A stretch of 64,000 nt of DNA from the NCBI GenBank assembly GCA_965217115.1, contig OZ244239.1:1600001-1664000 (forward strand). Reading direction: 5' to 3'. This document shows, in pieces, positions 28,904 to 57,464 of the stretch. The translations under genes and the position numbers were made by a program. The number at the start of each line of letters is the position of its first letter. Position 1 is the stretch's first letter. Under the pieces are notes generated by a model. That model was not told where the DNA came from, did no database searches, and saw only the letters and a program-made list of their open reading frames with translations. The stretch comes from Bdellovibrionales bacterium. Its GTDB lineage: Bacteria; Bdellovibrionota; Bdellovibrionia; Bdellovibrionales; CAYMLA01.

Positions 28904-29055
28904 TTTTTTTCTAGAGTCTCTCCCAAAAGAATCCAGTTCTTTTCGGCGAGTTTGGCTTGGCGACTTCCATTGCATTTCTCTGCAATGGAAGGTGACAAAC
29001 GGATGTTTGAGCAAGAAAAGGGCTGGATTCTTTTGGGAGAGACTCTAGAAAAAAA
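28904..29055. repeat. Long hairpin element A (152 bp)
   Basis: Perfect 33-bp arms (28904-28936 / 29023-29055); inner perfect 11-bp stem CTTCCATTGCA-N6-TGCAATGGAAG; motifs CGAGTT (28947-28952) and TGTTTGAG (29004-29011). Confidence 0.92.
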
Positions 29056-29241
29056 CCAGCGCCACTATTTATCACAAAGAACATCAAAGATGTCGTTGAT
29101 GGGAGCAGTTTATTGGGAGAGCCCATGGTTTTGGGTTCCCGTATTTTTTTGTGTGAAAAACGGGGTAAGATGGTAAAGGTAGATGCAGAAGATAAAAATC
29201 TGAGCTATTTTGGTAATGGGTGTTCGCAATAGCTTGATTAT

Positions 29242-29326
29242 TGGTGCCCAATGAGGGAGTCGAACCCCCACGCCTTTCGGCACTAGATCCTAAGTCTAGC
29301 GTGTCTGCCAGTTCCACCAATTGGGC
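29242..29326 (-). tRNA. tRNA-Leu(TAG)
   Basis: GCCCAAT...ATTGGGC-A-CCA acceptor stem, CTAGA-CTTAGGA-TCTAG anticodon arm, long variable arm, GGTTCGACTCC. Confidence 0.97.
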
Positions 29327-29396
29327 GATAAAAAAGCTAAGATAAAATTTAACAATTTTGTCTCTTTGTCGCAATGAAAAAAAGAGACTTCTAACC

Positions 29397-29786
29397 CTAT
29401 TTTTGTTCGATGAGCCTACGATATTCAGGGGCGCGTATGATATTGGCCAATTCTTTCTCGTTGTCCATTTCTATGCGAATGAGCCAGCCTTCGTTCATGG
29501 GGTCATCATTTAAAATACCTGTATTGCTCTCGATGCCTTCATTGACCTCGATGACCGTGCCTGAAACTGGGGCAATAAGGTCATTGGTTGCCTTGACGCT
29601 CTCGATAACACCAAAAGGTTCTGATTGAGTGACCTTTTGACCTTCTTCTGGAAGTTCAGCGTAGACGATCTCCCCAAGTGAATCTTGGGCATATTCGGTG
29701 ATTCCTACGGTGACGATATTTTCATCTACATTGGCCCACTCGTGGTCTTTTGTGTAATGATTTTCTTCTGGTATATTAAACCCCAT
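29397..29786 (-). CDS. gcvH: Glycine cleavage system H protein
   Basis: YTKDHEW, VGITEYAQ, IESVKA (lipoyl Lys). Confidence 0.96.
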   Translation of the reverse strand: MGFNIPEENHYTKDHEWANVDENIVTVGITEYAQDSLGEIVYAELPEEGQKVTQSEPFGVIESVKATNDLIAPVSGTVIEVNEGIESNTGILNDDPMNEGWLIRIEMDNEKELANIIRAPEYRRLIEQK

Positions 29787-29794
29787 TTTATCTC

Positions 29795-30907
29795 CTACTC
29801 GCTCTTTGGCTTTACAAAGGGTGTTTTAACAACAAGAGATTTAGCTTTTCGGCCACGAATGTCAATATAGAATTCAGTCCCCTGAGCTGAGATATCAGTA
29901 GGGAGGTAGGCGATACCAATAGCTTCCCCCAGAGAGGGCGACATTGTGCCACTTGTCACATGGCCAATTTCTTGTCCATCACTGTTGATGATCTTAGAAC
30001 CCTGCCGTGCAATGCCCTTATCAAGGATTTTAAAGCCGACAAGCTTTCTCTGTGATTTTGACTCCTTGGCATTAAGGAGAGCCGTTTTTCCAATAAATTC
30101 TTTAAGTTGAGGTTTTACAACCCAGCCTAATCCAGCTTCGTAGGGGGTGGTTGTGTCAGTGATTTCATTTCCGTAAAGACTGTATTTCATCTCTGTTCTT
30201 AGGGTGTCACGGGCTCCGAGGCCGGCTGGTTGCAAATGATATTTTTTTCCTACCTGAAGGAGGTGATTCCAGAAACTTGCAGCGCCGTCCTTTTGGATGA
30301 AGAACTCAAACCCATGCTCTCCTGTGTAACCCGTGCGAGCGAGAATACCCTGGTCATTTTTCCAACTGATATGTTTGAAGGAAAAAAGAGAGGTGTCGCT
30401 GACATTTTGCTCAAAAACCTCGTCCATAAGCTTTAACGCTTTGGGTCCTTGTATGGCAATCTGCGCCCAAAGCTCACTGTCGTTACTCAATTCGGCATTA
30501 AATTTATTGTTACTTACAACCCAATTCCAATCTTTTTCGATATTAGCGGCATTGACACATAGGAGGTAGTGATCGTTTTTTTCTAAACAATAGATAATAA
30601 GGTCATCGACAATACCTCCCTCTGGATTTGTTAATAAGGAGTATTGAGCTTGACCGTTTTCTAATTTAGCCACGTGGTTTGTCGTTAGCCATTCTAATGT
30701 CTCAAGAGCATTGGGGCCACTGACCCGAAACTCACCCATGTGGGAGACATCAAAAATACCGACATTATTACGTACAGCTTCATGCTCTATGCGTAACCCT
30801 TTGTACTGCACAGGCATGGACCAACCAACAAAAGGAACCATGCGTGCACCTAAGCGAATGTGTTCATTGTAGAGAGGAGTTTTTTTTGGATTTTCTACGT
30901 CACTCAT
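29795..30907 (-). CDS. gcvT: Glycine cleavage system aminomethyltransferase T
   Basis: KTPLY, FDVSHMGE, RTGYTGE, GLGARDTLR. Confidence 0.96.
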   Translation of the reverse strand: MSDVENPKKTPLYNEHIRLGARMVPFVGWSMPVQYKGLRIEHEAVRNNVGIFDVSHMGEFRVSGPNALETLEWLTTNHVAKLENGQAQYSLLTNPEGGIVDDLIIYCLEKNDHYLLCVNAANIEKDWNWVVSNNKFNAELSNDSELWAQIAIQGPKALKLMDEVFEQNVSDTSLFSFKHISWKNDQGILARTGYTGEHGFEFFIQKDGAASFWNHLLQVGKKYHLQPAGLGARDTLRTEMKYSLYGNEITDTTTPYEAGLGWVVKPQLKEFIGKTALLNAKESKSQRKLVGFKILDKGIARQGSKIINSDGQEIGHVTSGTMSPSLGEAIGIAYLPTDISAQGTEFYIDIRGRKAKSLVVKTPFVKPKSE

Positions 30908-31018
30908 TATTGGTCCCTTTAATTAATCTACCTCAAGTAAAAAAAAACGACGGGAGGTAGAGGGCCTTAATAATGGTTGAAAATAATCAGATAAGAAACC
31001 AATTATGCATAGAGTCGT

Positions 31019-32089
31019 TTAGGTTTTTGATTTTAATGACTGAAATTCAATTTTGAACTGTGGAGGTACTCTGAGTTCGTTGGCTTTAATGTCTAGCTCA
31101 TCAGGAAGTTTAACAAGGGTTCCTCGGGGAATCTCCTGTGCGTTGTTATTTTTTTTAAGCCAAGTGAGAAATTCTCTCTGAGGTCCACGGCATATGAGCT
31201 GCCGTATTTTCCCTTTTTCCTTGAGTGAATCTCCCGTCGTTCGTGCTGTGTTTCTTGGAAAAGGCTTTGGGGCTTCTCTACTAGCAAGAAGGTAGCTGTA
31301 AGTGAGGGTTTTATTTTTAATAGTGAGCTGTTTTTCAATATTTTGAAACCACGGTGGTTGTTGCCAGTGAATCCTGTGATGACACCAGTCTTTTTTTGAT
31401 TGTTCTAACAAAGGGCAGGGGTTTTGATGGGTACAGGGGCCCCAAATATAAAAACCTTTGTTTTGGAGATAGGCCCTCCACTCCATGAGTCTTCGTCCAT
31501 CAGCACGAGTGGATGGTTCAATGAAAACAAGGTGATCAAGCTGTTCAATCCAAGGGGGCATTTCATTTAGTTCCGTGAGTGAATATGAAAATAAGCCAAG
31601 AGATTTTTTTTCAGGAGAGATAAGATTGTTGTCCCAACAATGATGCCAGGAAGAATTGATTTCGATGTTTTTCACGACGGATTTATGGAGTCCTATTGCT
31701 TTTTCTGAAGTTTCGATACAGGTGAGAGAATTAATGCTGATTTCATTGTTTGTGATAAATGGTAGAGAACCAGCCCCTGTCCCTGAGCCAAAATCTAGAA
31801 GATGATGGGTGTTTTTTGCAAAATCTAAACGATTGATTTCTCTGTAGAGGCTTAAGCTTCTTATGAAGTTAAGCGGAAGATAATAGGAGCTATAGGCAAT
31901 TTGTGTAAAGGCTTCTTCCCAGGGAGTCGCGCTGTGGGGGTTGTCGATGTAATAGTCTGAGAGAGTTTTTATGCTCTCGGCGATTTTTTTTGTATCAGTG
32001 AGTTTAAGTCGGTGTTGTTGGAGATGGAGCGCTATGATTTTTTCTAGAAAAGGAGGAACTTGATAGGGAGATAACTTGTAAGAGTTCAT
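31019..32089 (-). CDS. Rsm22/METTL17-family SAM-dependent methyltransferase
   Basis: AY..YYLP, LDFGSGTG, SYSLTEL, IEPST, GPCTHQNPCPL...DWCHH. Confidence 0.8.
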   Translation of the reverse strand: MNSYKLSPYQVPPFLEKIIALHLQQHRLKLTDTKKIAESIKTLSDYYIDNPHSATPWEEAFTQIAYSSYYLPLNFIRSLSLYREINRLDFAKNTHHLLDFGSGTGAGSLPFITNNEISINSLTCIETSEKAIGLHKSVVKNIEINSSWHHCWDNNLISPEKKSLGLFSYSLTELNEMPPWIEQLDHLVFIEPSTRADGRRLMEWRAYLQNKGFYIWGPCTHQNPCPLLEQSKKDWCHHRIHWQQPPWFQNIEKQLTIKNKTLTYSYLLASREAPKPFPRNTARTTGDSLKEKGKIRQLICRGPQREFLTWLKKNNNAQEIPRGTLVKLPDELDIKANELRVPPQFKIEFQSLKSKT

Positions 32090-32191
32090 AGAAATAGCGT
32101 ATTTGTTTAGATAGCATTCGTCCAGTGTTTCTAATAACTTAAAATTAAAATAACGATTCAGTGTGTGAGGGTATTTTCAATCTAGAGGTGA

Positions 32192-33202
32192 TCAAAAGTT
32201 CTTAAGAGAGTTAAGGACTGTATTTACAGATAAATATTTCATTTGCTCATGGTTTAAAATGAATTCTTTAGGTGGAGTTAAGGTTCTGACAATTGGACCT
32301 CTGGGGGACCAACGGGTGGGAGATTGGGTTGGTGTCAGAGGGTAAAGTCCTATCGTGGGAGTGCCAAGACTGGCGGCCAGGTGAGCAACTCCAGTGCTTG
32401 GTGCAATAACTACTTTGGCTTGAGACAAAACAGTTAAAAGTTCGCTAGAGGAGAGTTTTGTATTTAGCCATTGTAGATTATTTACAGTGCTGTTGAGTGT
32501 GAGTTTTTCTTGGATGGGAGAGAGCCAAGGGTTGTCGCTGTGGGTTCCAGTGATAACAACTCTATCTGTTTGTATGAGTTGTTCAATAAGCTGAACGTAG
32601 TGTAGAGTGGGCCAATTAAGTGCTGAGCCTCCCATGCCTGGATGGATAACGATATAAGACTGAGGTTTGAGGTTGTATTTATTGAGAGAGTTTTCATTTT
32701 CTTGATTGATTTTCGATAATGTGAGTTGTAGGTGTGGTAGAGGGGTCGTTTTTTGTTGGAGTAATTTTTCGATGACCTGTTGATTATATTCAGCTTCATG
32801 GAGAGTACTTTGATGACGTTTTTGTCTAAGACCCTGTGTGAAAAAAACAAAAGAATGCCATTGACTATGATTGCCTATACGCTTCGGAACACGGCAAATC
32901 CAAAGAGCTAGATTGATCCACCATGGAGCGTGAAAAGAGATGGAAAGAGAAAACTGTTCCTGTCGAAGCCATCGACAAAGTTGAAAAAGATTCTTCCAGG
33001 AAAAGTATCGCAAAACTGATTCATAATTTCTTTTGGGGACACTGTTTTCAGGAATGAATTCCAGTCCTCTGGTGATAAGCCATGAGCACTTGTGGTTCTT
33101 GAGAGCAGGAAGTTGATCAATAGGAAGGGTGCAGACAAGATCTCCAATACGATCTACACGAATAAGGAGGGTTTTTTGTGGCTGTGTCGCTTTTATATTC
33201 AT
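32192..33202 (-). CDS. GT9 family (LPS heptosyltransferase-like)
   Basis: IRVDRIGDLV, HPG, STGVAHLAASLGTPTIGLY. Confidence 0.88.
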   Translation of the reverse strand: MNIKATQPQKTLLIRVDRIGDLVCTLPIDQLPALKNHKCSWLITRGLEFIPENSVPKRNYESVLRYFSWKNLFQLCRWLRQEQFSLSISFHAPWWINLALWICRVPKRIGNHSQWHSFVFFTQGLRQKRHQSTLHEAEYNQQVIEKLLQQKTTPLPHLQLTLSKINQENENSLNKYNLKPQSYIVIHPGMGGSALNWPTLHYVQLIEQLIQTDRVVITGTHSDNPWLSPIQEKLTLNSTVNNLQWLNTKLSSSELLTVLSQAKVVIAPSTGVAHLAASLGTPTIGLYPLTPTQSPTRWSPRGPIVRTLTPPKEFILNHEQMKYLSVNTVLNSLKNF

Positions 33203-33271
33203 TAGGATGATTTTATAATGAACTTGAGATTAGTGCAAGGCTTGTGCAAGTCCTCTGGAAAGAGATTTTAA

Positions 33272-34018
33272 GTGAGAGAAATATTTATGAGCGATAAAAT
33301 AATCAATCAAGCGTTGTACTCAGGAGAGAGAACTGGTAGGTTTTTTGCCATGAAGATTGAATCACAGGAAAAAGAATCTGAAATAAGGCGGAAAATAATA
33401 CAAGTTTGTCAGCGCCTATATCAACGGAATATGCTAGCGGCGGCGGATGGCAATGTGAGTTATCGTTTGTCTGATAAAAAAATATTGATAACTCCTACGG
33501 GAAAGCCAAAGGCTTTTATTGGGATTGATGACATTGCAATTGTCAATATTGAAGGAGGTATTCTTGAAGGACAACCTTCCAGTGAGAAGATGATGCACCT
33601 TCAGATTTATAGAAGTTGTCCTCAAGCGGTTTGCGTGGTTCATGCCCATCCACCGACAGCGATTGCTTGGAGTATTGCTTATCCTGAATTAAAAGAATTA
33701 CCCTCTTCAGGTTTGTCTGAAGTGATTTTAGCAGTTGGAAAAATTCCTTTTGTTCCCTATGCGAGGCCAGGAACCATTGATATGGGTGAGGTGTTAAAAT
33801 CCTATCTTCCTGAGTTGAGAGCTATGATCTTATCAAGACATGGAGCCTTGACCTGGGGAGAGAGTTTGGATGAAGCGGTAGGAGGAATGGAGAGGATAGA
33901 GCATTCCTGTGAAATTTTGTTTAAAGCTGAAAGGTTGGGTGGAATTACAGACTTGCCAAAAGAGGAAGTTAATTATTTAAAAGAACTGCGTAGAAAAATA
34001 GGAGATAAAATATTATGA
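33272..34018 (+). CDS. Class II aldolase/adducin family (FucA/Ald2-like); start may be 33350
   Basis: DGNVSYR, ITPTG, PSSEKMMH, VHAHP, RHG. Confidence 0.88.
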   Translation: MREIFMSDKIINQALYSGERTGRFFAMKIESQEKESEIRRKIIQVCQRLYQRNMLAAADGNVSYRLSDKKILITPTGKPKAFIGIDDIAIVNIEGGILEGQPSSEKMMHLQIYRSCPQAVCVVHAHPPTAIAWSIAYPELKELPSSGLSEVILAVGKIPFVPYARPGTIDMGEVLKSYLPELRAMILSRHGALTWGESLDEAVGGMERIEHSCEILFKAERLGGITDLPKEEVNYLKELRRKIGDKIL

Positions 34019-35040
34019 AAAATATGATATCAAAATCTCTTAAATATGAACAGGGTCAGATATTTATTTTGAATCAACAAAAACTTCCCCACGGGGAAGA
34101 GTGGTTAAAAAGTCAAACACCTGATGACATGGTGGAATTTATTAAAGAGTTAAAAATACGTGGAGCTCCTCTGATTGGTGTAGCGGCTTGTATCTGTCTG
34201 GCTCAATACGCCTTGTCTGGTGTAAGTCGTGGAGATGTGTTGTTGGCGGAGAAGAAACTGCGTAATTCACGGCCAACGGCAGTTAATTTAATGAACGGCT
34301 TGGACCGTATGTTAAGCGCCTATGAAGTGTCTGGTGGAAAAGCTTCTTCTTTAGAAGAAATGGCTGAAGATATTTTCTTTGAAGATGTGCAGCTTTGTGA
34401 AAAAATAGCAATGAATGGTTCTGAATTAGTGAAAAAAGGCGAGGGAATACTCACTCATTGTAATACGGGAGGTCTGGCGACCGTAGGTGTGGGAACGGCT
34501 TTGGGTGTGATTCAAAGAGTTCATGAAAAAAATAAAGACATTCATGTTTATGTGAATGAAACCCGTCCTCTTTTGCAAGGGGGGAGGTTGACAGCATGGG
34601 AGTTGGATAAAGCTCAAGTTCCCTACACTCTGCTCTGTGATAGTATGGCGGCGCATCTGATGGCAGAGGGAAAGGTGGATCGTGTTTTTGTCGGTGCTGA
34701 TCGTATTGCTAAAAATGGAGATTTTGCTAATAAAATAGGAACTTATTCATTGGCTGTGAATGCAAAATATCACGATGTCCCCTTCTATGTGGTAGCTCCT
34801 TATACGACCATTGATGTTGAATGTGAAAAAGGTAAAGATATTCCCATTGAGCAACGTGGAGAGGATGAGGTTCGAGGGGTTCGGGGTTCTTTTGGCAGTG
34901 TTGTGTGGAGTCCGAAAACTTGTGAAGTTTACAACCCAGCGTTTGATGTAACGCCTGCGAGTTTGGTGACAGGTTGGGTCTTGGATAGAGGTGTTTTTAA
35001 TCGTAAAGAATTTTATCATTTTATAACTGGAGGTATTTAA
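34015..35040 (+). CDS. mtnA: Methylthioribose-1-phosphate isomerase
   Basis: IRGAPLIG, RPTAVNL, THCNTGGLAT, ETRPLLQG, NKIGTY. Confidence 0.95.
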   Translation: MKNMISKSLKYEQGQIFILNQQKLPHGEEWLKSQTPDDMVEFIKELKIRGAPLIGVAACICLAQYALSGVSRGDVLLAEKKLRNSRPTAVNLMNGLDRMLSAYEVSGGKASSLEEMAEDIFFEDVQLCEKIAMNGSELVKKGEGILTHCNTGGLATVGVGTALGVIQRVHEKNKDIHVYVNETRPLLQGGRLTAWELDKAQVPYTLLCDSMAAHLMAEGKVDRVFVGADRIAKNGDFANKIGTYSLAVNAKYHDVPFYVVAPYTTIDVECEKGKDIPIEQRGEDEVRGVRGSFGSVVWSPKTCEVYNPAFDVTPASLVTGWVLDRGVFNRKEFYHFITGGI

Positions 35041-35042
35041 GT

Positions 35043-35888
35043 ATGTGGGCTGTTATTGGTGGATCTGGATTTGAAAAATTTGATGCATTTACAATAATTG
35101 AGGAGTTAGAGACTAAGACTTTTTTTGGTGATTGTTCCAGTGGTTTAAAGCGAGTGCGCTTAGGGGATGTTGAGTTTTTATTCTTGCCTCGCCATGGAAC
35201 TTCTCATGAACTCTTACCTTCTGAAATTAATTATCGAGCAAATATTTTTGCTCTAAAGAAGTATGGAGCAAGTAAGGTGATGTCGATATCTGCGGTGGGT
35301 TCCTTGCGAAAGGAGCTAAATCTAGGTGATATGGTTGTGCCTTATCAGTACATTGATCGCACGAAATCTTTGCGTCGACAGACCTTTTGTGGCGATGGAA
35401 TTGTGGGACATGTTTCTTTAGCTAAGCCAGTGACGATGGAGCTGGTTGAGCAGGTACAGGCGGTGGCTGATAAAATGGATTTCAAAATTCATTTTAATAA
35501 AATGGCTATTACAATGGAGGGGCCTGCTTTTTCAACAAAAGCAGAGTCAGATTGTCATCGTCAATTTGGTGGGGACCTTATCGGTATGACGGCCTATCCA
35601 GAATACGCTCTTATTAGAGAGGCGGGATTGGCTTTTTTGCCTTGTAGCTTTGTAACAGATTACGACTGTTGGGATGAGAATCGTCCCCATGTGACTTTGG
35701 AGGCATTCAAAGACGTGATGAGAGTCAATAATCAGAGGGCTTTTAATATGGCATCGGCGCTCATCTCCAATGGTGAGGAAGTGCTGCCACAGGGGTGTCC
35801 AGATCAGGGGTTGAAGACAGGCATTATGACTCCTAGGGATAAGTGGACCAATGAGCAAAAACAGTGGCTTTCAGTGCTTTTGGGCTAA
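35043..35888 (+). CDS. mtnP: Methylthioadenosine phosphorylase (MTAP family)
   Basis: IGGSG, PRHG..H, NYRANI, EGPAFSTKAES, GMT, VTDYDCW. Confidence 0.92.
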   Translation: MWAVIGGSGFEKFDAFTIIEELETKTFFGDCSSGLKRVRLGDVEFLFLPRHGTSHELLPSEINYRANIFALKKYGASKVMSISAVGSLRKELNLGDMVVPYQYIDRTKSLRRQTFCGDGIVGHVSLAKPVTMELVEQVQAVADKMDFKIHFNKMAITMEGPAFSTKAESDCHRQFGGDLIGMTAYPEYALIREAGLAFLPCSFVTDYDCWDENRPHVTLEAFKDVMRVNNQRAFNMASALISNGEEVLPQGCPDQGLKTGIMTPRDKWTNEQKQWLSVLLG

Positions 35889-36027
35889 AGACCATGAATA
35901 TAATTCTCTAAATAGTGTAAAGAGGAGAACAATTGTTTTATGCGCCGAATTATTTTGTTTTTTGCTGCTAAGTAGGTTATTCTCCCAGTTCAACTAAAAT
36001 GACGCTAGGCAGCGAAGGTTTAGAGAA

Positions 36028-36765
36028 ATGACTTACATTGGTTGGATGAAAATTTTTAGAATTGTTGCATTTTGTTTTTACGGAGTGTCTTCCTATGGTC
36101 TAGGTTCTGGTCCACGAGTTAATTTGCTTAATGGCGTTGTCATCGGTGAGATGGATACGACTTCGGGCAAAATTCCGGTTTATGATCGTAGAGCCCATTT
36201 TGGTGGTTGGTTGTCAGATAGGACAAAAAAGACCTGCTTTAATACCCGTGCATTGGTTTTGCAAAGAGATTCAGAGACAACCGTTAAAACGGCAGAAAAT
36301 AATAAATGTCGTGTTACGGGCGGACGTTGGGAAGGGGTTTATTCAGAGGGTTTATTTTTGAAGGGCGGTGACGTGGATATTGACCACATGGTCCCCCTTT
36401 ATAATGCCTATTACTCTGGTGGATGGAAGTGGTCTAATGGCAAACGTTGTCATTACAATAATTATATGGAAAACCCTTATCACTTGATAACAGTTTCAAG
36501 GGTTGAGAATCGCAGTAAGGGTGCTCAGGGCCCTGATGTTTATATGCCTCCTAAGAGGAGCTTTAAATGCAGTTATTTGGCCTTTTGGTTAAGAGTTAAG
36601 AGAATTTGGAAGTTAACGATGACTCCTTTAGAATATAGGACTATTCGTGGGGAACTAAGAGACCTTAAGTGTGATGATACGTTTTACACCATGAAGAAGA
36701 GTGAGTTGCTCAAAGAGTGGCGAAATGTGCGAAATATTCGTGAAGCATGCTCAGACAGGGATTAG
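36028..36765 (+). CDS. Secreted HNH-type nuclease, DUF1524 family
   Basis: Signal-like N-terminus; YDRRAHFGGW, CFNTR, DIDHMVPL, NRSKG. Confidence 0.8.
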   Translation: MTYIGWMKIFRIVAFCFYGVSSYGLGSGPRVNLLNGVVIGEMDTTSGKIPVYDRRAHFGGWLSDRTKKTCFNTRALVLQRDSETTVKTAENNKCRVTGGRWEGVYSEGLFLKGGDVDIDHMVPLYNAYYSGGWKWSNGKRCHYNNYMENPYHLITVSRVENRSKGAQGPDVYMPPKRSFKCSYLAFWLRVKRIWKLTMTPLEYRTIRGELRDLKCDDTFYTMKKSELLKEWRNVRNIREACSDRD

Positions 36766-37499
36766 TTATCTAGAAGGAAATGAAGAATTTGCGGAAGATC
36801 CTTGGGGGGCATTACCTCAGGGGGATGGGCGCTTTTGAAGTAAACTTGATTAATCTGAGGAGCTTTCTTAGATACGATGTGTAGGTTTCGTGGGTCGTTG
36901 TCAAAAAACCAAATCTCTTGATATTGCTGGCGCTCTAATGTTTCTTGAAAGAAGGCTAATTTAAATTCGGCATCATTCATGGATTTCTGAGGTTTCAGAA
37001 TCAAATTCCTGTTATTTCCTATAAGGGGTAGAGAGTGTCTTTGCAGTTGTTCGGCAGTGCCTTTTCCCATTCGTTCCACATCTCTTCCAGTTAGGTAAAA
37101 AACATCAGCATATTGCTGAAGAGTTTGGAGATAGTGGACGGCCCCCTCAACAGGAGTGTCGTAAATCAAGTAATCCTCGTGGAAGAAACATTGCAACCAA
37201 TATTCGTAGGCGTCTTTAAGTAGGGGTTCAGGGGATGTGATATTGATACTGGCGAGGGCATCTTGAATTCCCCAGAGATAGCGATTTATATTGATTTTTT
37301 CAATTTGAGGAGCCTGTAGGGAGTATTTTTTTTGAGTTTCAGGGAGAAGAGCAAACTCTCTTAAAATTTGTTGAATTCGAGGGCTGACGTCGAAGAGGGT
37401 TGAGTCAAGATCAAAGACGAGTAGAAATGAGTGCCCCTGCTTTTTTGCAGTCTTACATTTTGAGAGAAGATTTATAAGAAGGCTGGAGTCGTGCGTCAT
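36762..37499 (-). CDS. HAD-family hydrolase/phosphatase
   Basis: FDLDSTL, YLTGR, FFDND. Confidence 0.82.
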   Translation of the reverse strand: MTHDSSLLINLLSKCKTAKKQGHSFLLVFDLDSTLFDVSPRIQQILREFALLPETQKKYSLQAPQIEKININRYLWGIQDALASINITSPEPLLKDAYEYWLQCFFHEDYLIYDTPVEGAVHYLQTLQQYADVFYLTGRDVERMGKGTAEQLQRHSLPLIGNNRNLILKPQKSMNDAEFKLAFFQETLERQQYQEIWFFDNDPRNLHIVSKKAPQINQVYFKSAHPPEVMPPKDLPQILHFLLDN

Positions 37500-38528: not shown

Positions 38529-38553
38529 TTAGAGGAAAAATCGCGAACAGAAG

Positions 38554-49447: not shown

Positions 49448-49586
49448 GGCTGAATCCTATATCAATCTATTTGATTTAGCAATTAAGAAGGTTATTGTCT
49501 GTTAAATCACTACTCAGGCTCAAGGTCACTTCTCTAAGTAGAAAAGACTACTTCTACGGTCTAAATTCTGCTAATAGAAATAAGCT

Positions 49587-50579
49587 ATGATGGAACGTTT
49601 ATCTATGTTGGTTATTTTATTGATTGTTCTTGCAGGGCAGGGGGCTTTTTTAGGTTCTCTAGGGAGTTTTTTACAGAGCAACAGTGAAATTATTTCGATC
49701 TTAGGTTGGCAGAAAAGCCATGTTCAGAAGATTGATTGGAAGGAGATCAACCGTCAAGTTCGTGAAGAGGAAGGGCCTCGTAGCACGGTTTTTCCCCTAT
49801 GGGCTTATGCAAGTCATGTGCAAGATCCTGAGAATTTAGAAGTGGGTGTGGAATCGGGTGAGGTTTCTGTGGGTAGGCCCTATGTTTGGTTGCGAGTAAA
49901 GGGTTTCTATCGACGAACTTGTCAACAGATACGTCAGGGGTTGAAGCCAGGATCGATGACAGTCTTAGATTTACGAGGCAATCGTGGAGGGCTGGTGAGT
50001 GTGGCTCACTGTGTGATGGAACTCTTTGTCCCTAGGGGAACAAAGCTTTGGAGTTATCGAGATTATCAAACGGGTGAAAGTGTGAGAGTTTTTCTGGCCG
50101 CGCGGAGGATGTTGAGTGCTGATCCTTTGGTTGTTCTTGTAGATGGGCAAACAGCCTCCGTGGCTGAGGTTATGGCAGGTTCCTTGGGTGAATTAAAAAG
50201 AGCTGAGATTGTGGGACGACGTACACAGGGCAAGGGAACGGTTCAAGTTGGATATATGGACTCTAGATGGCGGGGAAGCGTGCATTATCAGACCCGGTAT
50301 CTCTTTGTTTTGCCTTCGGGAAAAGGGTTTCAGTTTCAAGGATGGCAGCCAAGTGTATTGGTTGAAGGTTTTTCATTGAGAGGAAAAGGGGAGAGAGAGG
50401 CTTACAGGGAACATGCTCAATTGGCAGAGAAGCTCTCTGAGTGGAATGATGGTAAAAAATCCAATCTCTCTAAGAGTTCTTCTTGTACCGTGACAAGTTA
50501 TGATAAGACTCAGCCTTATATGTTAGAGGGCTTGTTAAAGAGCGTGCTTGATTGTCAAAATAAGAAAGGCGAGGGATGA
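49587..50579 (+). CDS. S41 family peptidase without evident PDZ domain
   Basis: LDLRGNRGG, TASVAE, TQGKGTVQ. Confidence 0.75.
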   Translation: MMERLSMLVILLIVLAGQGAFLGSLGSFLQSNSEIISILGWQKSHVQKIDWKEINRQVREEEGPRSTVFPLWAYASHVQDPENLEVGVESGEVSVGRPYVWLRVKGFYRRTCQQIRQGLKPGSMTVLDLRGNRGGLVSVAHCVMELFVPRGTKLWSYRDYQTGESVRVFLAARRMLSADPLVVLVDGQTASVAEVMAGSLGELKRAEIVGRRTQGKGTVQVGYMDSRWRGSVHYQTRYLFVLPSGKGFQFQGWQPSVLVEGFSLRGKGEREAYREHAQLAEKLSEWNDGKKSNLSKSSSCTVTSYDKTQPYMLEGLLKSVLDCQNKKGEG

Positions 50580-51253
50580 TTAAAACAAATTTATTTCATT
50601 GTGAATTTATCAGAGCAAAGCGCTCTTCTTCGAGAAACTTGATGATTGTTTTACATGGTCGAGGGGATAGTTTAAAACCTTTTAGGGGTTTTTCTGGAGA
50701 GTTAAAGTTGCCAGAAATGAATTTACTTTTACTCAATGGCCCCCGTCGTTATGCAGGGGGGTATTCTTGGTATTCTCTTGAAAAAAACAAGTCTAAACAT
50801 GTGCGTCAAGTTAGAGAGGATTTGTTTTTACTCCTAGAGGAATTAGAAATTCAGGGTTGGAAATCAAAGAATATATTTCTTTTTGGCTTTTCCCAGGGAT
50901 GCTTGGTCGCTTGTGATTTTGCGATGAATTACTCTAAAACCTTGGGGGGAGTCATAGGGGTGAGTGGTTATTTCCATTTTCCACCAAATTGGCGTGCCCG
51001 TTTGTCTCAGGAGGCCAAAATGACACCCTGGTTAATTACCCATGGTCGTCAGGATGATGTTTTATCTGTGGATGAAACACGTGAGGGAGTTTGTAGGTTG
51101 AGGCGTGCAGGGATTTCAGTTCGTTGGTTAGAGATGGATAAAGAGCATGTGATTGCAGATGGGGAACTGCCTGTTATGCGCCACTGGGTGCGTTATTACA
51201 TAGAGAGGCCTCGATCTTCTCTGCGAGAGGCGGTTATTCCTCTGATGAGTTAG
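50576..51253 (+). CDS. Phospholipase/carboxylesterase (alpha/beta hydrolase)
   Basis: LHGRG, GFSQG, HGRQDDV, EH. Confidence 0.88.
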   Translation: MIKTNLFHCEFIRAKRSSSRNLMIVLHGRGDSLKPFRGFSGELKLPEMNLLLLNGPRRYAGGYSWYSLEKNKSKHVRQVREDLFLLLEELEIQGWKSKNIFLFGFSQGCLVACDFAMNYSKTLGGVIGVSGYFHFPPNWRARLSQEAKMTPWLITHGRQDDVLSVDETREGVCRLRRAGISVRWLEMDKEHVIADGELPVMRHWVRYYIERPRSSLREAVIPLMS

Positions 51254-51434
51254 AGGTGTTGTGTTTCTGTCACATTTCCTTTAAAGCACGCTTAGGTGGC
51301 GGACCTTTTTTATGATGGAAATTCAATGTGTACAGGGAGTTAGGATTGAGTTAAAGTTCTGTTTCTTTGGATAAGCAGCATACGAACAACACCAAAACCA
51401 TTGAAAAAGAAAATATTTATTAAGGAGAATTATT

Positions 51435-53120
51435 ATGAAAGAGACATTAGGTTTTTTGTTGCTCACTTTATCGATCAACTTATGGTCGGGTTCGGTTCAT
51501 GCTTCTCTTGCAGGACTTCCCCAAGCGGCAAAAGAGGCTGATCGCAGTGCAACTTTGAATCTTTATGGTTCGAGCTATCCGAAAACATTGAATCCAGTTA
51601 TTTCATCCACACTTTTGGAGACGACTATTTTGGATTCGATTTTTGAAAGTCTAATGATTCAAGATTTAGATACGGGTGAAATAGAATGTTATCTCTGTAC
51701 AGAGTATAAGTACAGTAAGGACAAAAAATCTGTGACGTTTACTTTGCGTAGAGATGCAAAATTCCATGACGGGAAGCCTTTGACGGCGGAAGATGTGATT
51801 TTTTCTTTTAAAGTTTACATGCACCCTAAGGTGGATAATCTAAATAGAAAATCTCCTCTCTTAGCTACGGTGAAGAGAGTTGAAAAGCTGGGAAAGTACA
51901 AACTAAAAGTTTATTTCAAGGCTGTTCGTTTCAATAATATTATCGGTACAAGTATATATGTTATTCCGAGACACCGTCTCTCCTACTTTGAAAAAAGCCC
52001 AGAGAAGTTTAATAAAGATCAAAAATTTGGTCGTAACCCCATGGGTTCTGGGCCATATAGATTTAAAAAATGGCGAGCAGGTAAGTACGTAGAGATTGTT
52101 CGTAATGATGATTGGTGGGGTTTTAAAGACCCCCGTTTTAAGAACACCTATAATTTTAAGAAAGTTCGATTTAAAATCGTTACAAACGACAACGTAGCTA
52201 TACAGGCTTTTCGTAAGGGAGAGTTTGATTTCATGGGACTCGCATCTTATAATTTTACGGCTTTAAAAGAAGACCTTGCCAGGGGTGAGAAGCTAAAGGT
52301 AAGTCCCCTTCACTTCATACCCAAGATCAGTACATCATTTATGTTTATTTCTTGGAACAGTCGTAAACCAAAGTTTAAAGATGCTAAGACGAGATTGGCA
52401 TTGACGTTATTGACCAATCGCTTTGAGGCGTTGAAAAAGTTCTCTAAGGGTTTAAGACCTCCCACCAACGGCCCCTGGGGAATAAACTCACCCTTTTCTT
52501 GTCCTGAGAAAAAATGTCCTGTTCCTAAATTTGATCCTAAAAAGGCTCAAAAGCTATTGGCAGAAGCTGGTTGGAGAGACTCTGACGGCGATGGAGTTTT
52601 AGATCGCACTGTTGATGGGAAAAAACAAAAATTATCTTTTAGTATTTTAGCTTCTCAGGGAGATTACTATAAAAACGTTCTTGGTGTTTATATGACCGAG
52701 ATGAAGAAGGCTGGAATAGATGTTAAAGCGAAGCAAATGGATTGGACGGCGTTGATTAAGCAAGTAGATGATTTAAAATTCGATTCTTATTTTTCGGGTT
52801 TTTCTCAGAGCTACCCTATATCTCCAAGGTCACTGTGGCACTCGTCAAACACTAAAAAAACAGGTTCTAATAGCTGGAACTTTGTCAGTAAAGAGGCCGA
52901 CAAACTGATTGATCAATTTGAAAAGGAGTTTGACACCAAGAAACGTCAAAAAATCGGTCAAAAGATACATGAAATAATTTACAGGGAACAACCTGTGATC
53001 TTTCATCATGAGGGTGGAGGATGTTATTTTGGTATTAACAAAAAGCTAAAAGGTGTGACTAAGTCTGATTACAGTGATAATTGCCTTTATTGGCCCCGTT
53101 GGTACAAAGCCAAGAAGTAA
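51435..53120 (+). CDS. Peptide ABC transporter substrate-binding protein (family 5)
   Basis: FHDGKPLTAEDV, GSGPYRF. Confidence 0.9.
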   Translation: MKETLGFLLLTLSINLWSGSVHASLAGLPQAAKEADRSATLNLYGSSYPKTLNPVISSTLLETTILDSIFESLMIQDLDTGEIECYLCTEYKYSKDKKSVTFTLRRDAKFHDGKPLTAEDVIFSFKVYMHPKVDNLNRKSPLLATVKRVEKLGKYKLKVYFKAVRFNNIIGTSIYVIPRHRLSYFEKSPEKFNKDQKFGRNPMGSGPYRFKKWRAGKYVEIVRNDDWWGFKDPRFKNTYNFKKVRFKIVTNDNVAIQAFRKGEFDFMGLASYNFTALKEDLARGEKLKVSPLHFIPKISTSFMFISWNSRKPKFKDAKTRLALTLLTNRFEALKKFSKGLRPPTNGPWGINSPFSCPEKKCPVPKFDPKKAQKLLAEAGWRDSDGDGVLDRTVDGKKQKLSFSILASQGDYYKNVLGVYMTEMKKAGIDVKAKQMDWTALIKQVDDLKFDSYFSGFSQSYPISPRSLWHSSNTKKTGSNSWNFVSKEADKLIDQFEKEFDTKKRQKIGQKIHEIIYREQPVIFHHEGGGCYFGINKKLKGVTKSDYSDNCLYWPRWYKAKK

Positions 53121-53138
53121 AAGAGGGTTTTTTAACTT

Positions 53139-54134
53139 ATGTGGACATATATTGCTCGCCGTTTACTTTTAATGATTCCCACGTTTTTTTTAATAACGGC
53201 GATTTCTTTTTTTATTATGCAGCTGGCTCCAGGTGGGCCTTTAGAGGCTAAGCTGCGCAGTGGAGGCGAAGGTGAAAGCTCTGCGGCAATGGTTGTCACC
53301 CAGGAGGCCAAAGAAGCTCTGATGAAGCTCTATGGTTTTGATAAGCCTGTTCATGAGCGTTATTTCAAATGGGTGGGTGATATAGTTACTTTAGATTTTG
53401 GTGAATCTCTCTTTGAATATCGTCCTGTTATAAGTATGATTATCGAAAAATTAGAAGTGGCATTGTTATTTGGAATCACTTCAACGATAGTCTCCTATTT
53501 GGTTTGTATGGTCTTGGGGGTGTTTAAGGCGATCTATCGCGATACGGTTTTTGATCGTATTACGACCATGATTACGTTTGGAACTTACTCAGTGCCTGTG
53601 GTGGTCACTGCTATCGCGTTGATTATTGTATTTTCAGTGAAGTTAGATTTGCTGCCAGTGATTGGTCTTCATGGTGATGATTATGAAGATTTAGACACTT
53701 GGAGTTATTTGGTGGATCTAGCAAAGCACTTTGTTTTGCCTTTTGTGTGTTACGTGATTGGTAACTTTGCGTTCTTAACTGAGTTGCAGAAAAAATCTAT
53801 GCTGGAAGAATTAAACAAGGATTACATTCGCACAGCTCGGGCAAAGGGACTCTCTGAAAAAGTTATTTACTTTAAACATGCCTTTCGCAATGCCTTGATT
53901 CCTATTGTGACAAGTTTGCGAAATATTATGGTGGCTTTTTTAGGAGGGTCGTTCATTGTTGAAATGATTTTTACTATTCCAGGGCTGGGGTATTTGGGGT
54001 TTAATGCTCTATTGAATCGAGATTACCCTGTGATTATGGCTAATTTAACAATCACGGCTATTTTAGGAATGATCTCCATGCTTTTAACAGATATTTTGTA
54101 CACGGTTGTGGATCCACGTATTGATTTCGACTAA
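53139..54134 (+). CDS. Peptide ABC permease (OppB/YejB-like)
   Basis: YIARRLL, LAPGGP, DYIRTARAKGL, VDPRI. Confidence 0.92.
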   Translation: MWTYIARRLLLMIPTFFLITAISFFIMQLAPGGPLEAKLRSGGEGESSAAMVVTQEAKEALMKLYGFDKPVHERYFKWVGDIVTLDFGESLFEYRPVISMIIEKLEVALLFGITSTIVSYLVCMVLGVFKAIYRDTVFDRITTMITFGTYSVPVVVTAIALIIVFSVKLDLLPVIGLHGDDYEDLDTWSYLVDLAKHFVLPFVCYVIGNFAFLTELQKKSMLEELNKDYIRTARAKGLSEKVIYFKHAFRNALIPIVTSLRNIMVAFLGGSFIVEMIFTIPGLGYLGFNALLNRDYPVIMANLTITAILGMISMLLTDILYTVVDPRIDFD

Positions 54135-54147
54135 AGGATAAAGAGAG

Positions 54148-55257
54148 TTGAGACATAAAAAGAAAAGTGAATTTTGGAAACGTTTTAATCGCAATAAACC
54201 TGCGAAGATTTCTTTTTATATTTTTACTGTCATTTTATTAATATCTCTTTTTGCAAATCTTGTTTCTAATGACAGGCCTTTATTAATGTCATATGGGGGG
54301 AATTTGTATTTTCCTGCAGCGATTAAGTATTTACCTAAAGACTTTGGTGAAGAGGGGTTTGTCGTGGATTACTTTGCCATGCATGACAAAATCGCCAAAA
54401 ACGGTTGGGCTATTTGGCCTCCAATTAAACAAAAACCTTTTGAGCAAAACTTAAATTTTGAAAGACTCCCCGCGCGCCCAGGTTCATCGTCTGTTGTTTC
54501 CAAAACAAGTGACTATGAAGGCTATAAGGTCTTTCATATATTGGGAACAGATACGGGGGGAAGGGATTTATTAACTCGCTTGATTTATGGATGCCGTACC
54601 TCTTTGCTAATGGCAACGCTTATTACATTGATTTCTCTCTTGCTTGGAGTGTTTTTAGGGGCGTTGATGGGGTATCGTGGAGGTGTTTTTGACCTTGTTA
54701 TAGGGCGGGTTTTAGAGACGATAGGTTATTTTCCAGTGATCTTTTTAATGATTATCTTAGTGGCATTTATCGAAGACCCCAGCAATTCTTATATTATAGG
54801 GATTTTTTCAATTTTAGGTTTGTCGCCGTTTGCTTTTTATATGCGAGGGCAAGTTCTTAAGGTTAGAAAAATGACATACATTGAAGCGGCCCATGCTTTG
54901 GGACAGAGTGATTTTAAAATTATGTTTAGTCATATTTTACCAAATGCCATAAGCCCTATTTTGGTTTTAGTTCCTTTTACAATCACGGGAAATATTACGG
55001 CTTTGGCGACAATTGATTTCTTAGGTTTTGGAGTGCAACCTCCAACGTCAAGTCTCGGATTGATTTTACGTTCGGGCTATGATGATTTAGCAAATCGTTG
55101 GTGGTTAATAGCCTCATCCTCAGTCGTGTTAGTTGTGATTCTTTTGTTGGTAAATTTTATCGGTGAGGGAGCAAGAGATGGTGTTGATCCTAGGGCTAAT
55201 ATCACGGAAAAAGTTATTGATGATCTGGAAAAGAAAGAAAGGTTAGCCCATGCATAA
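54148..55257 (+). CDS. Peptide ABC permease (OppC/YejE-like)
   Basis: LGTDTGGRD, YIEAA, HILPN, GEGARD. Confidence 0.92.
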   Translation: MRHKKKSEFWKRFNRNKPAKISFYIFTVILLISLFANLVSNDRPLLMSYGGNLYFPAAIKYLPKDFGEEGFVVDYFAMHDKIAKNGWAIWPPIKQKPFEQNLNFERLPARPGSSSVVSKTSDYEGYKVFHILGTDTGGRDLLTRLIYGCRTSLLMATLITLISLLLGVFLGALMGYRGGVFDLVIGRVLETIGYFPVIFLMIILVAFIEDPSNSYIIGIFSILGLSPFAFYMRGQVLKVRKMTYIEAAHALGQSDFKIMFSHILPNAISPILVLVPFTITGNITALATIDFLGFGVQPPTSSLGLILRSGYDDLANRWWLIASSSVVLVVILLLVNFIGEGARDGVDPRANITEKVIDDLEKKERLAHA

Positions 55258-55322
55258 GGACCATTTATCATCTCAGAAGATGGTGTTGAATTGCTGTAAG
55301 TTATTGAAATTGGATTTTGTGT

Positions 55323-56315
55323 ATGAGTGAGAAAATTTTAGAGATTAAAAATTTAGAGACAGTTTTTTACACCGAAAAGGGCATTGTTCGTGCTGTCGAT
55401 GGAGTGTCTTTTGATGTTAAACCAGGAAAAACTCTAGGTATCGTTGGTGAATCAGGCTGTGGAAAATCAGTGACATCTCTATCGATTATGGGTTTAGTGA
55501 TGCCTCCAGCGGGTAAAATCCGTGGTGGAGAAATTTTATTCCATGGTACAAATGAGACTAACCAGAATAGCACAAAGGATTTGTTAAAATTTTCTCAGGA
55601 TGAAATGCGCAATGTGCGTGGAAAAGATATCTCTATGATTTTTCAAGAGCCGATGACCTCTTTGAATCCTGTTTACAGAGTAGGGGATCAAATATCTGAA
55701 GTGTTTATTCTTCATTATGGAGCTACGAAAAAAGAGGCATGGGATCGTTCAATAGAAATGCTACAAAAGGTGGGAATTCCATCGCCTGAGGAAAGAGTAA
55801 ATGATTACCCCCACTCTCTTTCGGGAGGGATGAGACAACGGGTGATGATTGCAATGGCTCTTGCTTGTCGTCCAAAAATTTTGATTTGTGATGAGCCGAC
55901 AACAGCCTTAGACGTAACGATTCAGGCACAAATATTAGACTTAATGAGAAAACTTCAAGAAGAAGAGGACATGGCTATAATTTTTATTAGTCATGATTTA
56001 GGAGTGATTGCCGATCTTTGCGATGATGTGATGGTGATGTATTCGGGTAAAACGGTAGAATTTTCAGAGACAAAGAGCTTATATCGAAACCCTAGTCATC
56101 CGTACACAAAGGCTTTGTTGCAATCGATTCCTCGTTTGGGACAGAACCCTGATGAAGAGTTGAGGACAATACCTGGCTTGGTTCCGAGCTTATTGGAGCT
56201 TCCACGGGGTTGTCATTTTGCCGATCGCTGCTCCTATGTTAAGAGTGAGTGTCGTCAGGAATTACCACCTTTGAGAAAGAAAGATGATGGACATTTGGTG
56301 AGATGTATTTTGTGA
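55323..56315 (+). CDS. oppD: Peptide ABC ATPase (OppD-like)
   Basis: [32 protein letters not shown]. Confidence 0.9.
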   Translation: MSEKILEIKNLETVFYTEKGIVRAVDGVSFDVKPGKTLGIVGESGCGKSVTSLSIMGLVMPPAGKIRGGEILFHGTNETNQNSTKDLLKFSQDEMRNVRGKDISMIFQEPMTSLNPVYRVGDQISEVFILHYGATKKEAWDRSIEMLQKVGIPSPEERVNDYPHSLSGGMRQRVMIAMALACRPKILICDEPTTALDVTIQAQILDLMRKLQEEEDMAIIFISHDLGVIADLCDDVMVMYSGKTVEFSETKSLYRNPSHPYTKALLQSIPRLGQNPDEELRTIPGLVPSLLELPRGCHFADRCSYVKSECRQELPPLRKKDDGHLVRCIL

Positions 56316-56345
56316 ACATAAATAAAATAAAATGAGATAAAAATT

Positions 56346-57326
56346 ATGAGTCAATTCTTGTTAGAAGTAAAAAATTTAAAAAAGCACTTTCCTATTAAGG
56401 GAGGGATTTTTATGCGTGAAGTGGCAAATGTTCACGCTGTAGATGGCATCTCTTTTTCTCTGCGTAAAGGGGAGACCCTAGGTGTGGTTGGAGAGTCTGG
56501 CTGTGGTAAGTCCACTTTAGGAAAGACATTGTTAAAGCTTCATAGCATTACCGAGGGGGAAGTTTTTTTTGAAGGCAAAAATATAACAGAGCTTTCAAGA
56601 GATGAAATACGCCCCTTAAGAGGTGATATGCAAATTATTTTTCAAGATCCTTTTTTTTCGTTAAACCCTCGTCACACGATCCAACAAATTATGTTAGAGC
56701 CTTTAGGAATTCATGGTATTGGAAATGATGAAAATGAGAAAATTAAAATAGCTAGTGAGATTTTAGAAACATGTGGCCTGCGTGCGGAAACGTCATTAGA
56801 TCGTTATCCCCATGAATTTTCGGGCGGGCAGAGGCAGAGGATAGGAATTGCTCGCGCATTGGTTTTAAATCCTAAATTAATTATTGCTGATGAGCCAGTT
56901 TCGGCTTTAGATGTTTCAGTTCAATCGCAAATTTTGAATCTTCTTAAGAAATTACAAAAAGACTTTGATTTAACGTATATATTTATTTCCCATGATTTGG
57001 CGGTGGTTCAGTATATAAGCTCCCATATATTGGTGATGTACTTGGGGCAGGTGGTGGAATATACAGACAGAGAGAGCTTGTATAAAAACACGATGCATCC
57101 CTATACCAAGGCTCTTGTGTCGGCGATTCCCGTGCCTGATCCTGAAGCTAATATTGAGCGCATTGTGCTTGAGGGGGATGTCCCAAGTCCTATTGATCCC
57201 CCGAATGGTTGTCGATTTCATCCTCGTTGCCCTCAAGCGATGGAGCTGTGTAAAAGTAAGGTTCCTGAGTTGAGGGATTTTGGGGGTGGGGATGGGTTTC
57301 AGTGGGTTGCATGTCATTTGTATTGA
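56346..57326 (+). CDS. oppF: Peptide ABC ATPase (OppF-like)
   Basis: [33 protein letters not shown]. Confidence 0.9.
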
Positions 57327-57337
57327 TTTTGGCAAGG

Positions 57338-57464
57338 GGCTGAGCTTTTTAAGCCGCCTTCTATTATTTATCTCAGACATGCGGTTGGCAGCAGTGCTCG
57401 CTCTGCGAGCACTGCACCAATCCGAACTCGATAAAGAATAGAAGGCGGCTTAAAAAGCTCAGCC
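57338..57464. repeat. Long hairpin element B (127 bp)
   Basis: Perfect 28-bp arms (57338-57365 / 57437-57464); inner 11-bp stem GCAGTGCTCGC-TCT-GCGAGCACTGC; motifs CTCAGACA (57372-57379) and AACTCG (57425-57430). Confidence 0.92.

What the first reader, a model, noticed from the sequence alone, without database searches (positions are those of the whole stretch)
28904..57464. Two long hairpins with unrelated stems but the same bulged internal-loop motif: candidate structure-defined ssDNA/RNA element family
Seen: A (28904-29055) and B (57338-57464) share one architecture of perfect outer arms (33 and 28 bp), an imperfect middle and a perfect 11-bp inner stem. The arms and inner stems have no sequence similarity. 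The middle segments do align once one element is reversed: CTCAAACATCCGTTTGTCA vs CTCAGACATGCGGTTGGCA (15/19) and CGCCAAGCCAAACTCG vs CACCAATCCGAACTCG (13/16). On one strand both read [arm]-CGAGTT-[stem-loop]-ATGTYTGAG-[arm]. Folded, CGAG faces TGAG and could form tandem sheared G.A pairs. Inference: full stem turnover with a conserved bulge is what one expects of a site recognised as a folded single strand (as with attC, REP/REPIN or HUH-nuclease substrates, single-strand origins, or a structured RNA). From memory only, and unverified, a compact TGTYTGAGCGNAGCGAGTT motif occurs in bacterial intergenic palindromes; these would be a circularly permuted form of it. Both copies sit at rearrangement scars, and no cognate enzyme is visible in the window.
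Basis: partly seen in the sequence, partly recalled or inferred. Interest (0 to 1): 0.82.

Follow-up and report, generated by a model that had tools for sequence, protein, structure and literature searches.

The report
Pan-bacterial folded-DNA hairpin repeat superfamily
The two hairpins are 2 of about 105 copies in this genome of a DNA repeat whose small lopsided loop stays fixed while its stems change, and the same loop, turned inside out, marks repeats in distant bacterial phyla, so it is likely an undescribed signal read on folded single-stranded DNA by a protein that is not yet identified.

Summary
Observation confirmed. The hairpins are 2 of 105 copies (40 type A, 65 type B) in this genome; relatives with the same core are Bdellovibrionales. 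Earlier notes of this scan found the family in this genome but called it Bdellovibrio-only.

New here:
(1) The same loop in permuted, capped form (TGTYTGAGC-GNA-GCGAGTT) marks palindromes in viral and metagenome contigs and multicopy repeats in Fusobacteriota and Ralstonia records.
(2) It looks like folded DNA, not RNA. Caps are GNA or GNNA DNA mini-hairpins (38 of 62 unique, 1/16 by chance), and arm mismatches favour the motif strand (G.T 61, A.C 19).
(3) At one orthologous site a host word is single in 16 of 16 core-less genomes and doubled in inverted form in 10 of 12 core-bearing ones, so arms are likely copied from flanking DNA.
(4) Hairpin A rides in a MITE with terminal inverted repeats and 8-bp target duplications (17 of 30).

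No Rfam family and no mover enzyme were found. Best reading (0.55): a REPIN-like selfish ssDNA repeat superfamily with an unknown trans-acting nuclease. Main rival (0.2): a host priming signal.

The parts
28743..29082 (+). Left-truncated copy of a 210-520 bp MITE that carries hairpin A; aligns to positions 156-516 of a 517-nt full copy elsewhere in the genome
28904..29055 (+). Hairpin A: 33-bp perfect arms (41 nt with two G.T pairs), conserved loop, inner stem
28947..28952 (+). Loop strand CGAGTT of A
29004..29011 (+). Loop strand TGTTTGAG of A; its GA faces the GA of CGAG (predicted tandem sheared G.A pairs)
   Evidence: the pairing is inference
28964..28991 (+). 11-bp inner stem and 6-nt loop of A
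29062..29083 (-). Right terminal inverted repeat of the MITE
29242..29326 (-). tRNA-Leu(TAG) whose 3' end faces the MITE about 160 nt away (neighbour, not part of the element)
57323..57337 (-). Conserved 3' tail of B; it overlaps the TGA stop (57324-57326) of the facing oligopeptide ABC ATPase gene 56346-57326(+)
57338..57464 (-). Hairpin B: 28-bp perfect locus-specific arms, conserved loop, inner stem
57425..57430 (-). Loop strand CGAGTT of B
57372..57379 (-). Loop strand TGTCTGAG of B
57391..57415 (-). 11-bp inner stem and 3-nt loop of B
57465..57496 (-). Conserved 5' leader of B (found about 60 nt before the core in 53 of 65 B copies)
57438..57761 (.). Tandem array, 4.9 x 66 bp, made of the B leader plus outer arm

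Best explanation
The hairpins belong to a multicopy repeat superfamily whose constant part is a small asymmetric loop that is likely read on folded single-stranded DNA by an unidentified trans-acting nuclease, REPIN-fashion, while the arms are likely rewritten from neighbouring host DNA by fold-back copying. Shown: copy number; invariant loop with replaced stems; the permuted GNA-capped form in other phyla; strand bias of mismatches; a host word present once in core-less and twice inverted in core-bearing orthologous sites; TIRs and 8-bp duplications around type A. Inferred: (a) the motif strand folds when single-stranded during replication or repair; (b) a protein binds the loop and nicks nearby, which moves the core; (c) template switching perfects and extends the arms in both directions until they meet a stop codon, tRNA end, ribosome-binding site or promoter that cannot be overwritten; (d) one copy was captured by an ISL3-like MITE and amplified about 40-fold by a DDE transposase no longer found in this genome.
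For: 105 copies. On 14 B-type copies from several genomes, 16 of 16 arm pairs change on both sides while loop columns stay fixed; 84.3% of cells pair against 67.6% shuffled. Compact form: 119 viral stretches; 124 metagenome stretches for a 31-nt pattern, scan stopped at its limit; 15 copies in a 0.96-Mb Ilyobacter record and 13 in a 1.8-Mb Ralstonia record, controls 0 and 1. Flanking inverted repeats in 56 of 80 unique metagenome hits and 15 of 35 GNA-capped viral hits, against 1 of 24 non-GNA hits. Caps are GNA in 89 of 120 (38 of 62 unique); 4-nt caps are GTTA or GCTA in 14 of 36 and GNRA in 2 of 36. GCGNAGC and GCGNNAGC are DNA mini-hairpins, much less stable as RNA (PMC13037366, passages). 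Arm mismatches G.T:A.C are 61:19 in 59 arms of other genomes and 34:13 in 41 unique B arms here. Site 1: inverted copy of a host 11-mer in 10 of 12 core-bearing and 0 of 16 core-less loci, 28 of 30 scorable; 2 of 2 syntenic genomes of other genera are core-less and one keeps a similar word. Site 2: five unrelated arm pairs around the same core among 30 loci. MITE: 8-bp duplication with at most 1 mismatch in 17 of 30 scorable A copies, 14 perfect. Template switching as the corrector of inverted repeats: PMC5941160 (abstract).
Against: No mover was found. Y1_Tnp is missing from this genome, from the two next-richest genomes and from three plasmid records. No motif lies beside 8 Y1 loci. No transposase or nuclease family is enriched among 123 neighbours of the compact form. 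GxxExxY, DUF559 and HNH counts do not follow copy number in 31 genomes. No clean insertion polymorphism with exact ends was seen for B. At site 1 the core-bearing rows are not one clade (3 changes, p-AU 0.0001), so gains and losses are unresolved. Retention of the loop at that site in genomes whose flanks are about 77% identical may mean a host function. The structure counted was derived from these sequences. A few copies have the MITE module inside crude ORF calls that I did not curate.
Confidence: 0.55

Rival explanations
1. The loop is a host priming or restart signal, akin to a primosome assembly site or single-strand origin. PriA or primase would start synthesis on it, which helps rolling-circle replicons and lets chromosomal copies spread and be kept without an enzyme of their own.
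For: The full compact motif lies on the plus strand about 70 nt 3' of a conserved hairpin in the intergenic region of Vibrio filamentous phages and satellites with Rep_trans proteins, and in a 3.4-kb Bacillus plasmid with a Rep_trans-like protein. The ColE1 record holds the tip GAGCGTAGCGAGT. Mini-hairpins occur at phage priming sites (PMC13037366, passages). PriA is present in this genome. No dedicated enzyme was found.
Against: ColE1 lacks the TGTYT half, and B cores align to it no better than to shuffles (41 against a null maximum of 42). Plasmid hits are mostly chromid-sized records; 2 small plasmids were seen among the listed rows. The Bacillus hairpin is not shared by other plasmid types. 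Replichore bias is opposite for A (25 of 34 clusters leading-like) and B (12 of 18 lagging-like, p 0.24). That the ColE1 tip lies in its primosome site is recalled, not read.
Confidence: 0.2
2. The element works as structured RNA, a 3' stabiliser, terminator or processing site at gene ends, as described for ERIC and REP repeats.
For: The 3' end of B lies within 30 nt of a facing stop in 21 of 65 copies (5' side: 5) and in 17 of 21 clusters. In other genomes it is 19 of 59 against 4, with 4 at tRNA 3' ends. G.T bias fits G.U as well. At site 2 the motif strand is the mRNA strand. Repeats at gene 3' ends affect mRNA stability (PMC3184786, passages).
Against: The motif strand is antisense to the facing gene or tRNA. 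At site 1 it lies upstream of a promoter-like sequence on its own strand. Caps are DNA-type GNA or GNNA, not GNRA. No Rfam family reaches its gathering score.
Confidence: 0.1
3. Nothing reads the loop. Cores are passengers of MITEs and local duplications, the loop is merely inherited, and ordinary template switching keeps the arms perfect.
For: Type A is a MITE passenger, and two TIR-bearing loci have other internal sequence without the hairpin. B arrays are local duplications with shared flanks.
Against: Template switching should erase an asymmetric loop, yet the loop is the invariant part across families, phyla and two permutations. Where the core is lost, a plain palindrome is left (L414, L437).
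Confidence: 0.1
4. B copies are attC-like recombination sites of a gene-cassette system.
For: Several B clusters alternate same-direction copies with single small, often secreted-type genes.
Against: The three tyrosine recombinases over the cut-off lie more than 10 kb from B copies. Many clusters hold no gene between copies, and flanks are duplicated with the element. Other genomes have mostly single copies.
Confidence: 0.05

Closest known systems
REP / REPIN elements with RAYT (Y1 HUH) transposases (PMC4690160, passages)
   Same: Multicopy extragenic imperfect palindromes, likely read as single-stranded hairpins; back-to-back doublets occur.
   Different: No GTAG-type tag at the hairpin foot, and the constant part is an internal loop that exists in two circular permutations. 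Arms are host-derived. No Y1 gene in the three richest genomes.
ERIC/IRU, Correia and other bacterial MITEs (PMC3184786, passages); ISL3-family ends (recalled)
   Same: Type A sits in a gene-less element with about 22-bp TIRs and 8-bp target duplications. Copies are frequent near gene 3' ends.
   Different: Duplication is 8 bp, not a TA flank. Type B has no TIR or target duplication. The loop occurs without the MITE and the TIR without the loop.
DNA mini-hairpins GCGNAGC / GCGNNAGC at phage G4, St-1 and alpha3 priming sites, RSF1010 ssiA and N4 promoters (PMC13037366, passages); primosome assembly sites (PMC5778457, passages)
   Same: The compact form is capped by exactly these mini-hairpins and occurs in some rolling-circle replicons.
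   Different: Adds a fixed TGTYT/GTT loop under tandem GA. The open form in this window has no such cap. Mostly chromosomal and multicopy.
Integron attC sites (recalled)
   Same: Structure-defined, strand-specific hairpins with variable stems; some arrays flank single genes.
   Different: No integron integrase nearby and no attC end boxes seen by eye; copies carry duplicated flanks.

Membership tests
REP/REPIN-RAYT | Multicopy extragenic imperfect palindrome | tested here: met
   105 copies, nearly all between genes by a crude gene set
REP/REPIN-RAYT | Conserved GTAG/GTGG tetranucleotide 5' of the hairpin | tested here: not met
   Not in the flanks printed (read by eye); feature from PMC4690160
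REP/REPIN-RAYT | RAYT gene flanked by the repeat | tested here: not met
   No Y1_Tnp in G000, G008, G019; no motif in 8 Y1 loci of G005, G007, G080
REP/REPIN-RAYT | Cleavage of the folded strand by an HUH nuclease | not testable with these tools
   needs biochemistry
MITE (type A carrier) | Terminal inverted repeats | tested here: met
   about 22-bp TIRs, 65 pattern hits
MITE (type A carrier) | Target-site duplication | tested here: met
   8 bp with at most 1 mismatch in 17 of 30 scorable copies; 10 of 40 could not be scored
ISL3 family | Cognate ISL3 transposase with the same ends | tested here: inconclusive
   PF01610 not found in this genome; TIR not multicopy in 200 other genomes of the order; the remnant frame has no outside homologue. 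The ISL3 label rests on recalled end features
MITE (type B) | TIRs and target duplication | tested here: not met
   No end duplication in single B copies
Rfam structured RNA | Match at gathering score | tested here: not met
   Window: only a tRNA; 11 loci: only sub-threshold miRNA and lncRNA models
Structured RNA | Expression of the folded strand | not testable with these tools
   No RNA holder listed
Primosome assembly site / single-strand origin | On the single-stranded strand of rolling-circle replicons | tested here: inconclusive
   True for a Vibrio phage group and one Bacillus plasmid; small plasmids not enriched
Primosome assembly site / single-strand origin | PriA- or primase-dependent priming | not testable with these tools
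   needs an assay
Integron attC | Adjacent integron integrase | tested here: not met
   hits at genome 605 kb, 743 kb and 1679 kb, none beside a B array
Integron attC | attC end boxes and extrahelical bases | not tested
   only looked at by eye

The most novel reading that the evidence does not exclude
A pan-bacterial selfish DNA motif with no enzyme of its own. It recruits the host's priming or restart machinery through a fixed ssDNA loop, inserts as a 60-nt core, and builds its arms as an inverted copy of the target, which would be a new kind of mobile element and a portable ssDNA priming signal shared with rolling-circle phages.
Probability: 0.2. Interest if true: 0.85.

Novelty: new variant of a known kind. 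Interest (0 to 1): 0.62.

Why it matters
If right, many unannotated 100-250 bp intergenic palindromes in distant phyla share one ssDNA recognition loop. That gives a defined, short substrate for finding a new hairpin-reading nuclease or host factor. Arms copied from the target would also explain why such repeats escape sequence-based family searches and why they end flush with stop codons and tRNA ends. The searches made found no description of the motif; closed-access papers and supplements were not searched, and an older description under another name cannot be excluded.

Tried and rejected
Rfam at gathering score and at E 0.5: nothing relevant.
Movers: Y1_Tnp, Rep_trans and ISL3 not found in this 99%-complete genome; the one GIY-YIG hit is in a 655-aa frame, probably UvrC. 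GxxExxY 1 of 31, DUF559 2 of 31, HNH 31 of 31 genomes with no link to copy number. A retron-like reverse transcriptase lies far from any copy. No gene for a mover between back-to-back copies.
TTGAT/TCAA likeness of the B tail to IS200/IS605 ends (recalled): not supported, no Y1 gene and opposite strand use in A and B.
Replichore bias: opposite in A and B.
ColE1 alignment: not significant.
Plasmid searches with window B and with the MITE body: chance hits only. MITE body in 250 genomes of the order: only short weak hits.
Sequencing runs: no RNA holder listed; four contig sets of one sample showed no empty site.
The loose pattern matched 24 of 31 relatives, but most counts were at control level; clear excess only in G000, G008, G019, G007.
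The compact form matched 2 of 201 genomes of this phylum.
Reversed-pattern control: 88 viral hits with mixed loops, commonest 12 of 88.
Literature searches gave no description of the family (listings only).
Full report
OBSERVATION. Both hairpins are as described: perfect arms of 33 and 28 bp, 11-bp inner stems, middle segments alike at 15/19 and 13/16, arms unrelated. The window lies at 1,600,001-1,664,000 of a single 2.17-Mb contig. The exact loop pattern occurs 88 times there against 8 for its reverse. A relaxed pattern finds 105 copies in 55 clusters: 40 near-identical type A and 65 type B. A B-specific scan of the species-genome collection gave 12 loci, all titled Bdellovibrionales or families of that order, so this genome is probably of that group (inference). 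Related cores with other inner stems occur in G008, G019, G007, G080, G005 and genus g27; 35 of 301 genomes of the phylum matched a stricter pattern, some by chance.

TYPE A IS A MITE PASSENGER. The A hairpin sits inside a 210-520 bp element with about 22-bp terminal inverted repeats. Of 40 copies, 30 could be scored and 17 have an 8-bp direct repeat with at most one mismatch, 14 of them perfect. Four of the 13 misses are the first members of tandem pairs. The ends resemble ISL3 ends (recalled, no paper read; one search gave nothing useful), but no ISL3 transposase was found and the remnant frame has no outside homologue. Two loci carry the left TIR with other internal sequence, so carrier and hairpin are separable. 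The window copy is cut on the left at 28743.

TYPE B. It has a conserved leader (53 of 65), core and tail, and locus-specific arms. No end duplication was seen. Its 3' end lies within 30 nt of a facing stop codon in 21 of 65 copies against 5 on the 5' side, and in 17 of 21 clusters. ORFs were called by a simple rule and a few run through the hairpin. The window copy ends 11 nt from the TGA of an ABC ATPase gene. In 59 arms from other genomes the figures are 19 against 4, four of them flush with a tRNA 3' end. There are exceptions: at site 2 below the motif strand is the sense strand.

THE LOOP IS WIDESPREAD IN PERMUTED FORM. TGTYTGAGC-GNA-GCGAGTT occurs in 119 viral stretches. With the neighbouring GAGGAC/CCGCAG loop that g27 open copies carry (the joined form was first seen in L079) it occurs in at least 124 metagenome stretches. 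Of 80 unique full-flank hits, 56 have flanking inverted repeats above the 99th percentile of shuffled pairs. It is multicopy in an Ilyobacter record (15, control 0) and a Ralstonia record (13, control 1), with a shared 3' tail hairpin. In this phylum the compact form is rare, 2 of 201 genomes. This goes beyond earlier notes of the scan, which called the family Bdellovibrio-only. Whether open and compact forms share descent or only a reader is not shown.

DNA OR RNA. With the cap left free, 89 of the first 120 viral hits (38 of 62 unique) have a GNA cap, and inverted flanks go with GNA (15 of 35) and not with other caps (1 of 24). Among 36 four-base caps, GTTA and GCTA make 14 and GNRA 2. GCGNAGC and GCGNNAGC are unusually stable DNA mini-hairpins, weaker as RNA (PMC13037366, passages). 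Arm mismatches read on the motif strand are G.T 61 and A.C 19 in other genomes, and 34 and 13 here, so that strand is the one that folds; kin are not independent. It is usually antisense to the facing gene. No Rfam family fits. Expression could not be tested.

WHERE ARMS COME FROM. Site 1, a divergent spacer in genus g27 (30 loci fetched of 43 genomes with a match): an 11-nt word next to the promoter-like sequence is present once in all 16 scorable core-less loci and has an inverted copy in the left arm of 10 of 12 core-bearing loci. In L387, L392 and L394 the right side instead matches the left, so copying ran both ways (by eye). The core-bearing rows are not one clade (3 changes; p-AU 0.0001; 28 rows, L394 too short and L396 not parsed), so some core-less loci such as L395 may be losses. 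Two syntenic genomes of other genera are core-less and one keeps a similar word, which favours a host origin of the word. Site 2, a spacer between flagellar-type genes (30 of 44 loci): five loci carry the core with five unrelated arm pairs, and two others keep a plain palindrome without it (by eye). Template switching is a known corrector of inverted repeats (PMC5941160, abstract). What is odd is that the lopsided loop survives this process: in alignment A1 all 16 arm pairs change on both sides while the loop is fixed.

THE MOVER WAS NOT FOUND. Y1_Tnp, Rep_trans and ISL3 are missing here. Y1_Tnp is also missing from G008 and G019 and from three plasmid records (their chromosomes were not searched). 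Among 123 neighbours of the compact form most are housekeeping genes; single GIY-YIG, HNH and integrase genes and four DUF559 genes of one lineage appear. Three nuclease families do not track copy number. I did not scan the whole proteome against Pfam.

PRIMING RIVAL. In Vibrio filamentous phages and satellites the motif ends the conserved intergenic region on the plus strand, about 70 nt after a hairpin whose loop fits the nick described for the CTX phage origin (PMC4439123, passages; the match to that origin is my inference). It also lies in a small Bacillus plasmid with a Rep_trans-like protein. ColE1 has only the tip. Small plasmids are not enriched and strand bias to replication is inconsistent.

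VERDICT. Real, and larger than the two copies: a structure-defined ssDNA repeat superfamily that works like REPINs but fails REP membership tests, with likely host-derived arms, and with one subfamily carried by a MITE. New variant of a known kind; interest 0.62. Papers seen: passages of PMC13037366, PMC4690160, PMC3184786, PMC4439123, PMC5778457; abstract and outline of PMC5941160; other papers as listings only. No supplements were read.

Noticed in passing
G000:C1:1868366-1869313 (L302:1873-2814, - strand): Stand-alone reverse transcriptase of about 315 aa (RVT_1, E 2.6e-12) near the rpsG gene, beside a gene that looks like a restriction subunit; retron-like by size.
   Followed up: partly
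G000:C1:742000-746000 (L303): Phage-type integrase (365 aa) with small neighbouring genes, probably an integrated element.
   Followed up: partly
window 63761-63803: Perfect 21-bp palindrome with a 1-nt loop and A/T runs, probably a two-way terminator.
   Followed up: no
G000 B clusters, e.g. 1814846-1821780, 913682-919938, 474942-482935: Same-direction B copies alternate with small, often secreted-type genes; in the first cluster each copy carries a copy of the end of the neighbouring housekeeping gene.
   Followed up: partly
G000 upstream of many B copies, e.g. 881676-882747: Pyrimidine-rich tandem repeats derived from the B leader, of very different lengths.
   Followed up: no
L416-L428, spacer of site 2: Core-less loci hold other short GA-rich hairpins (GCGGAGC- and GCCGAAGG-type), so this spacer looks like a hot spot for mini-hairpin repeats.
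   Followed up: no
L022, L049 and related viral loci: The compact motif lies inside a 352-359 aa phage gene with no Pfam match, on the antisense strand and without flanking inverted repeats.
   Followed up: partly
L043 (2275-nt circular virus-like contig): The compact motif lies between two convergent genes.
   Followed up: partly
G005 (L162): 27 HNH and 17 weak Y1-like genes in one 2.8-Mb genome; an HNH-type gene starts upstream of two cores.
   Followed up: partly
P0002 (own genome, 373 aa): A peptidase C1-type frame whose first 24 residues are read from the MITE end.
   Followed up: no
L396: A different palindromic insert without the core at site 1.
   Followed up: no
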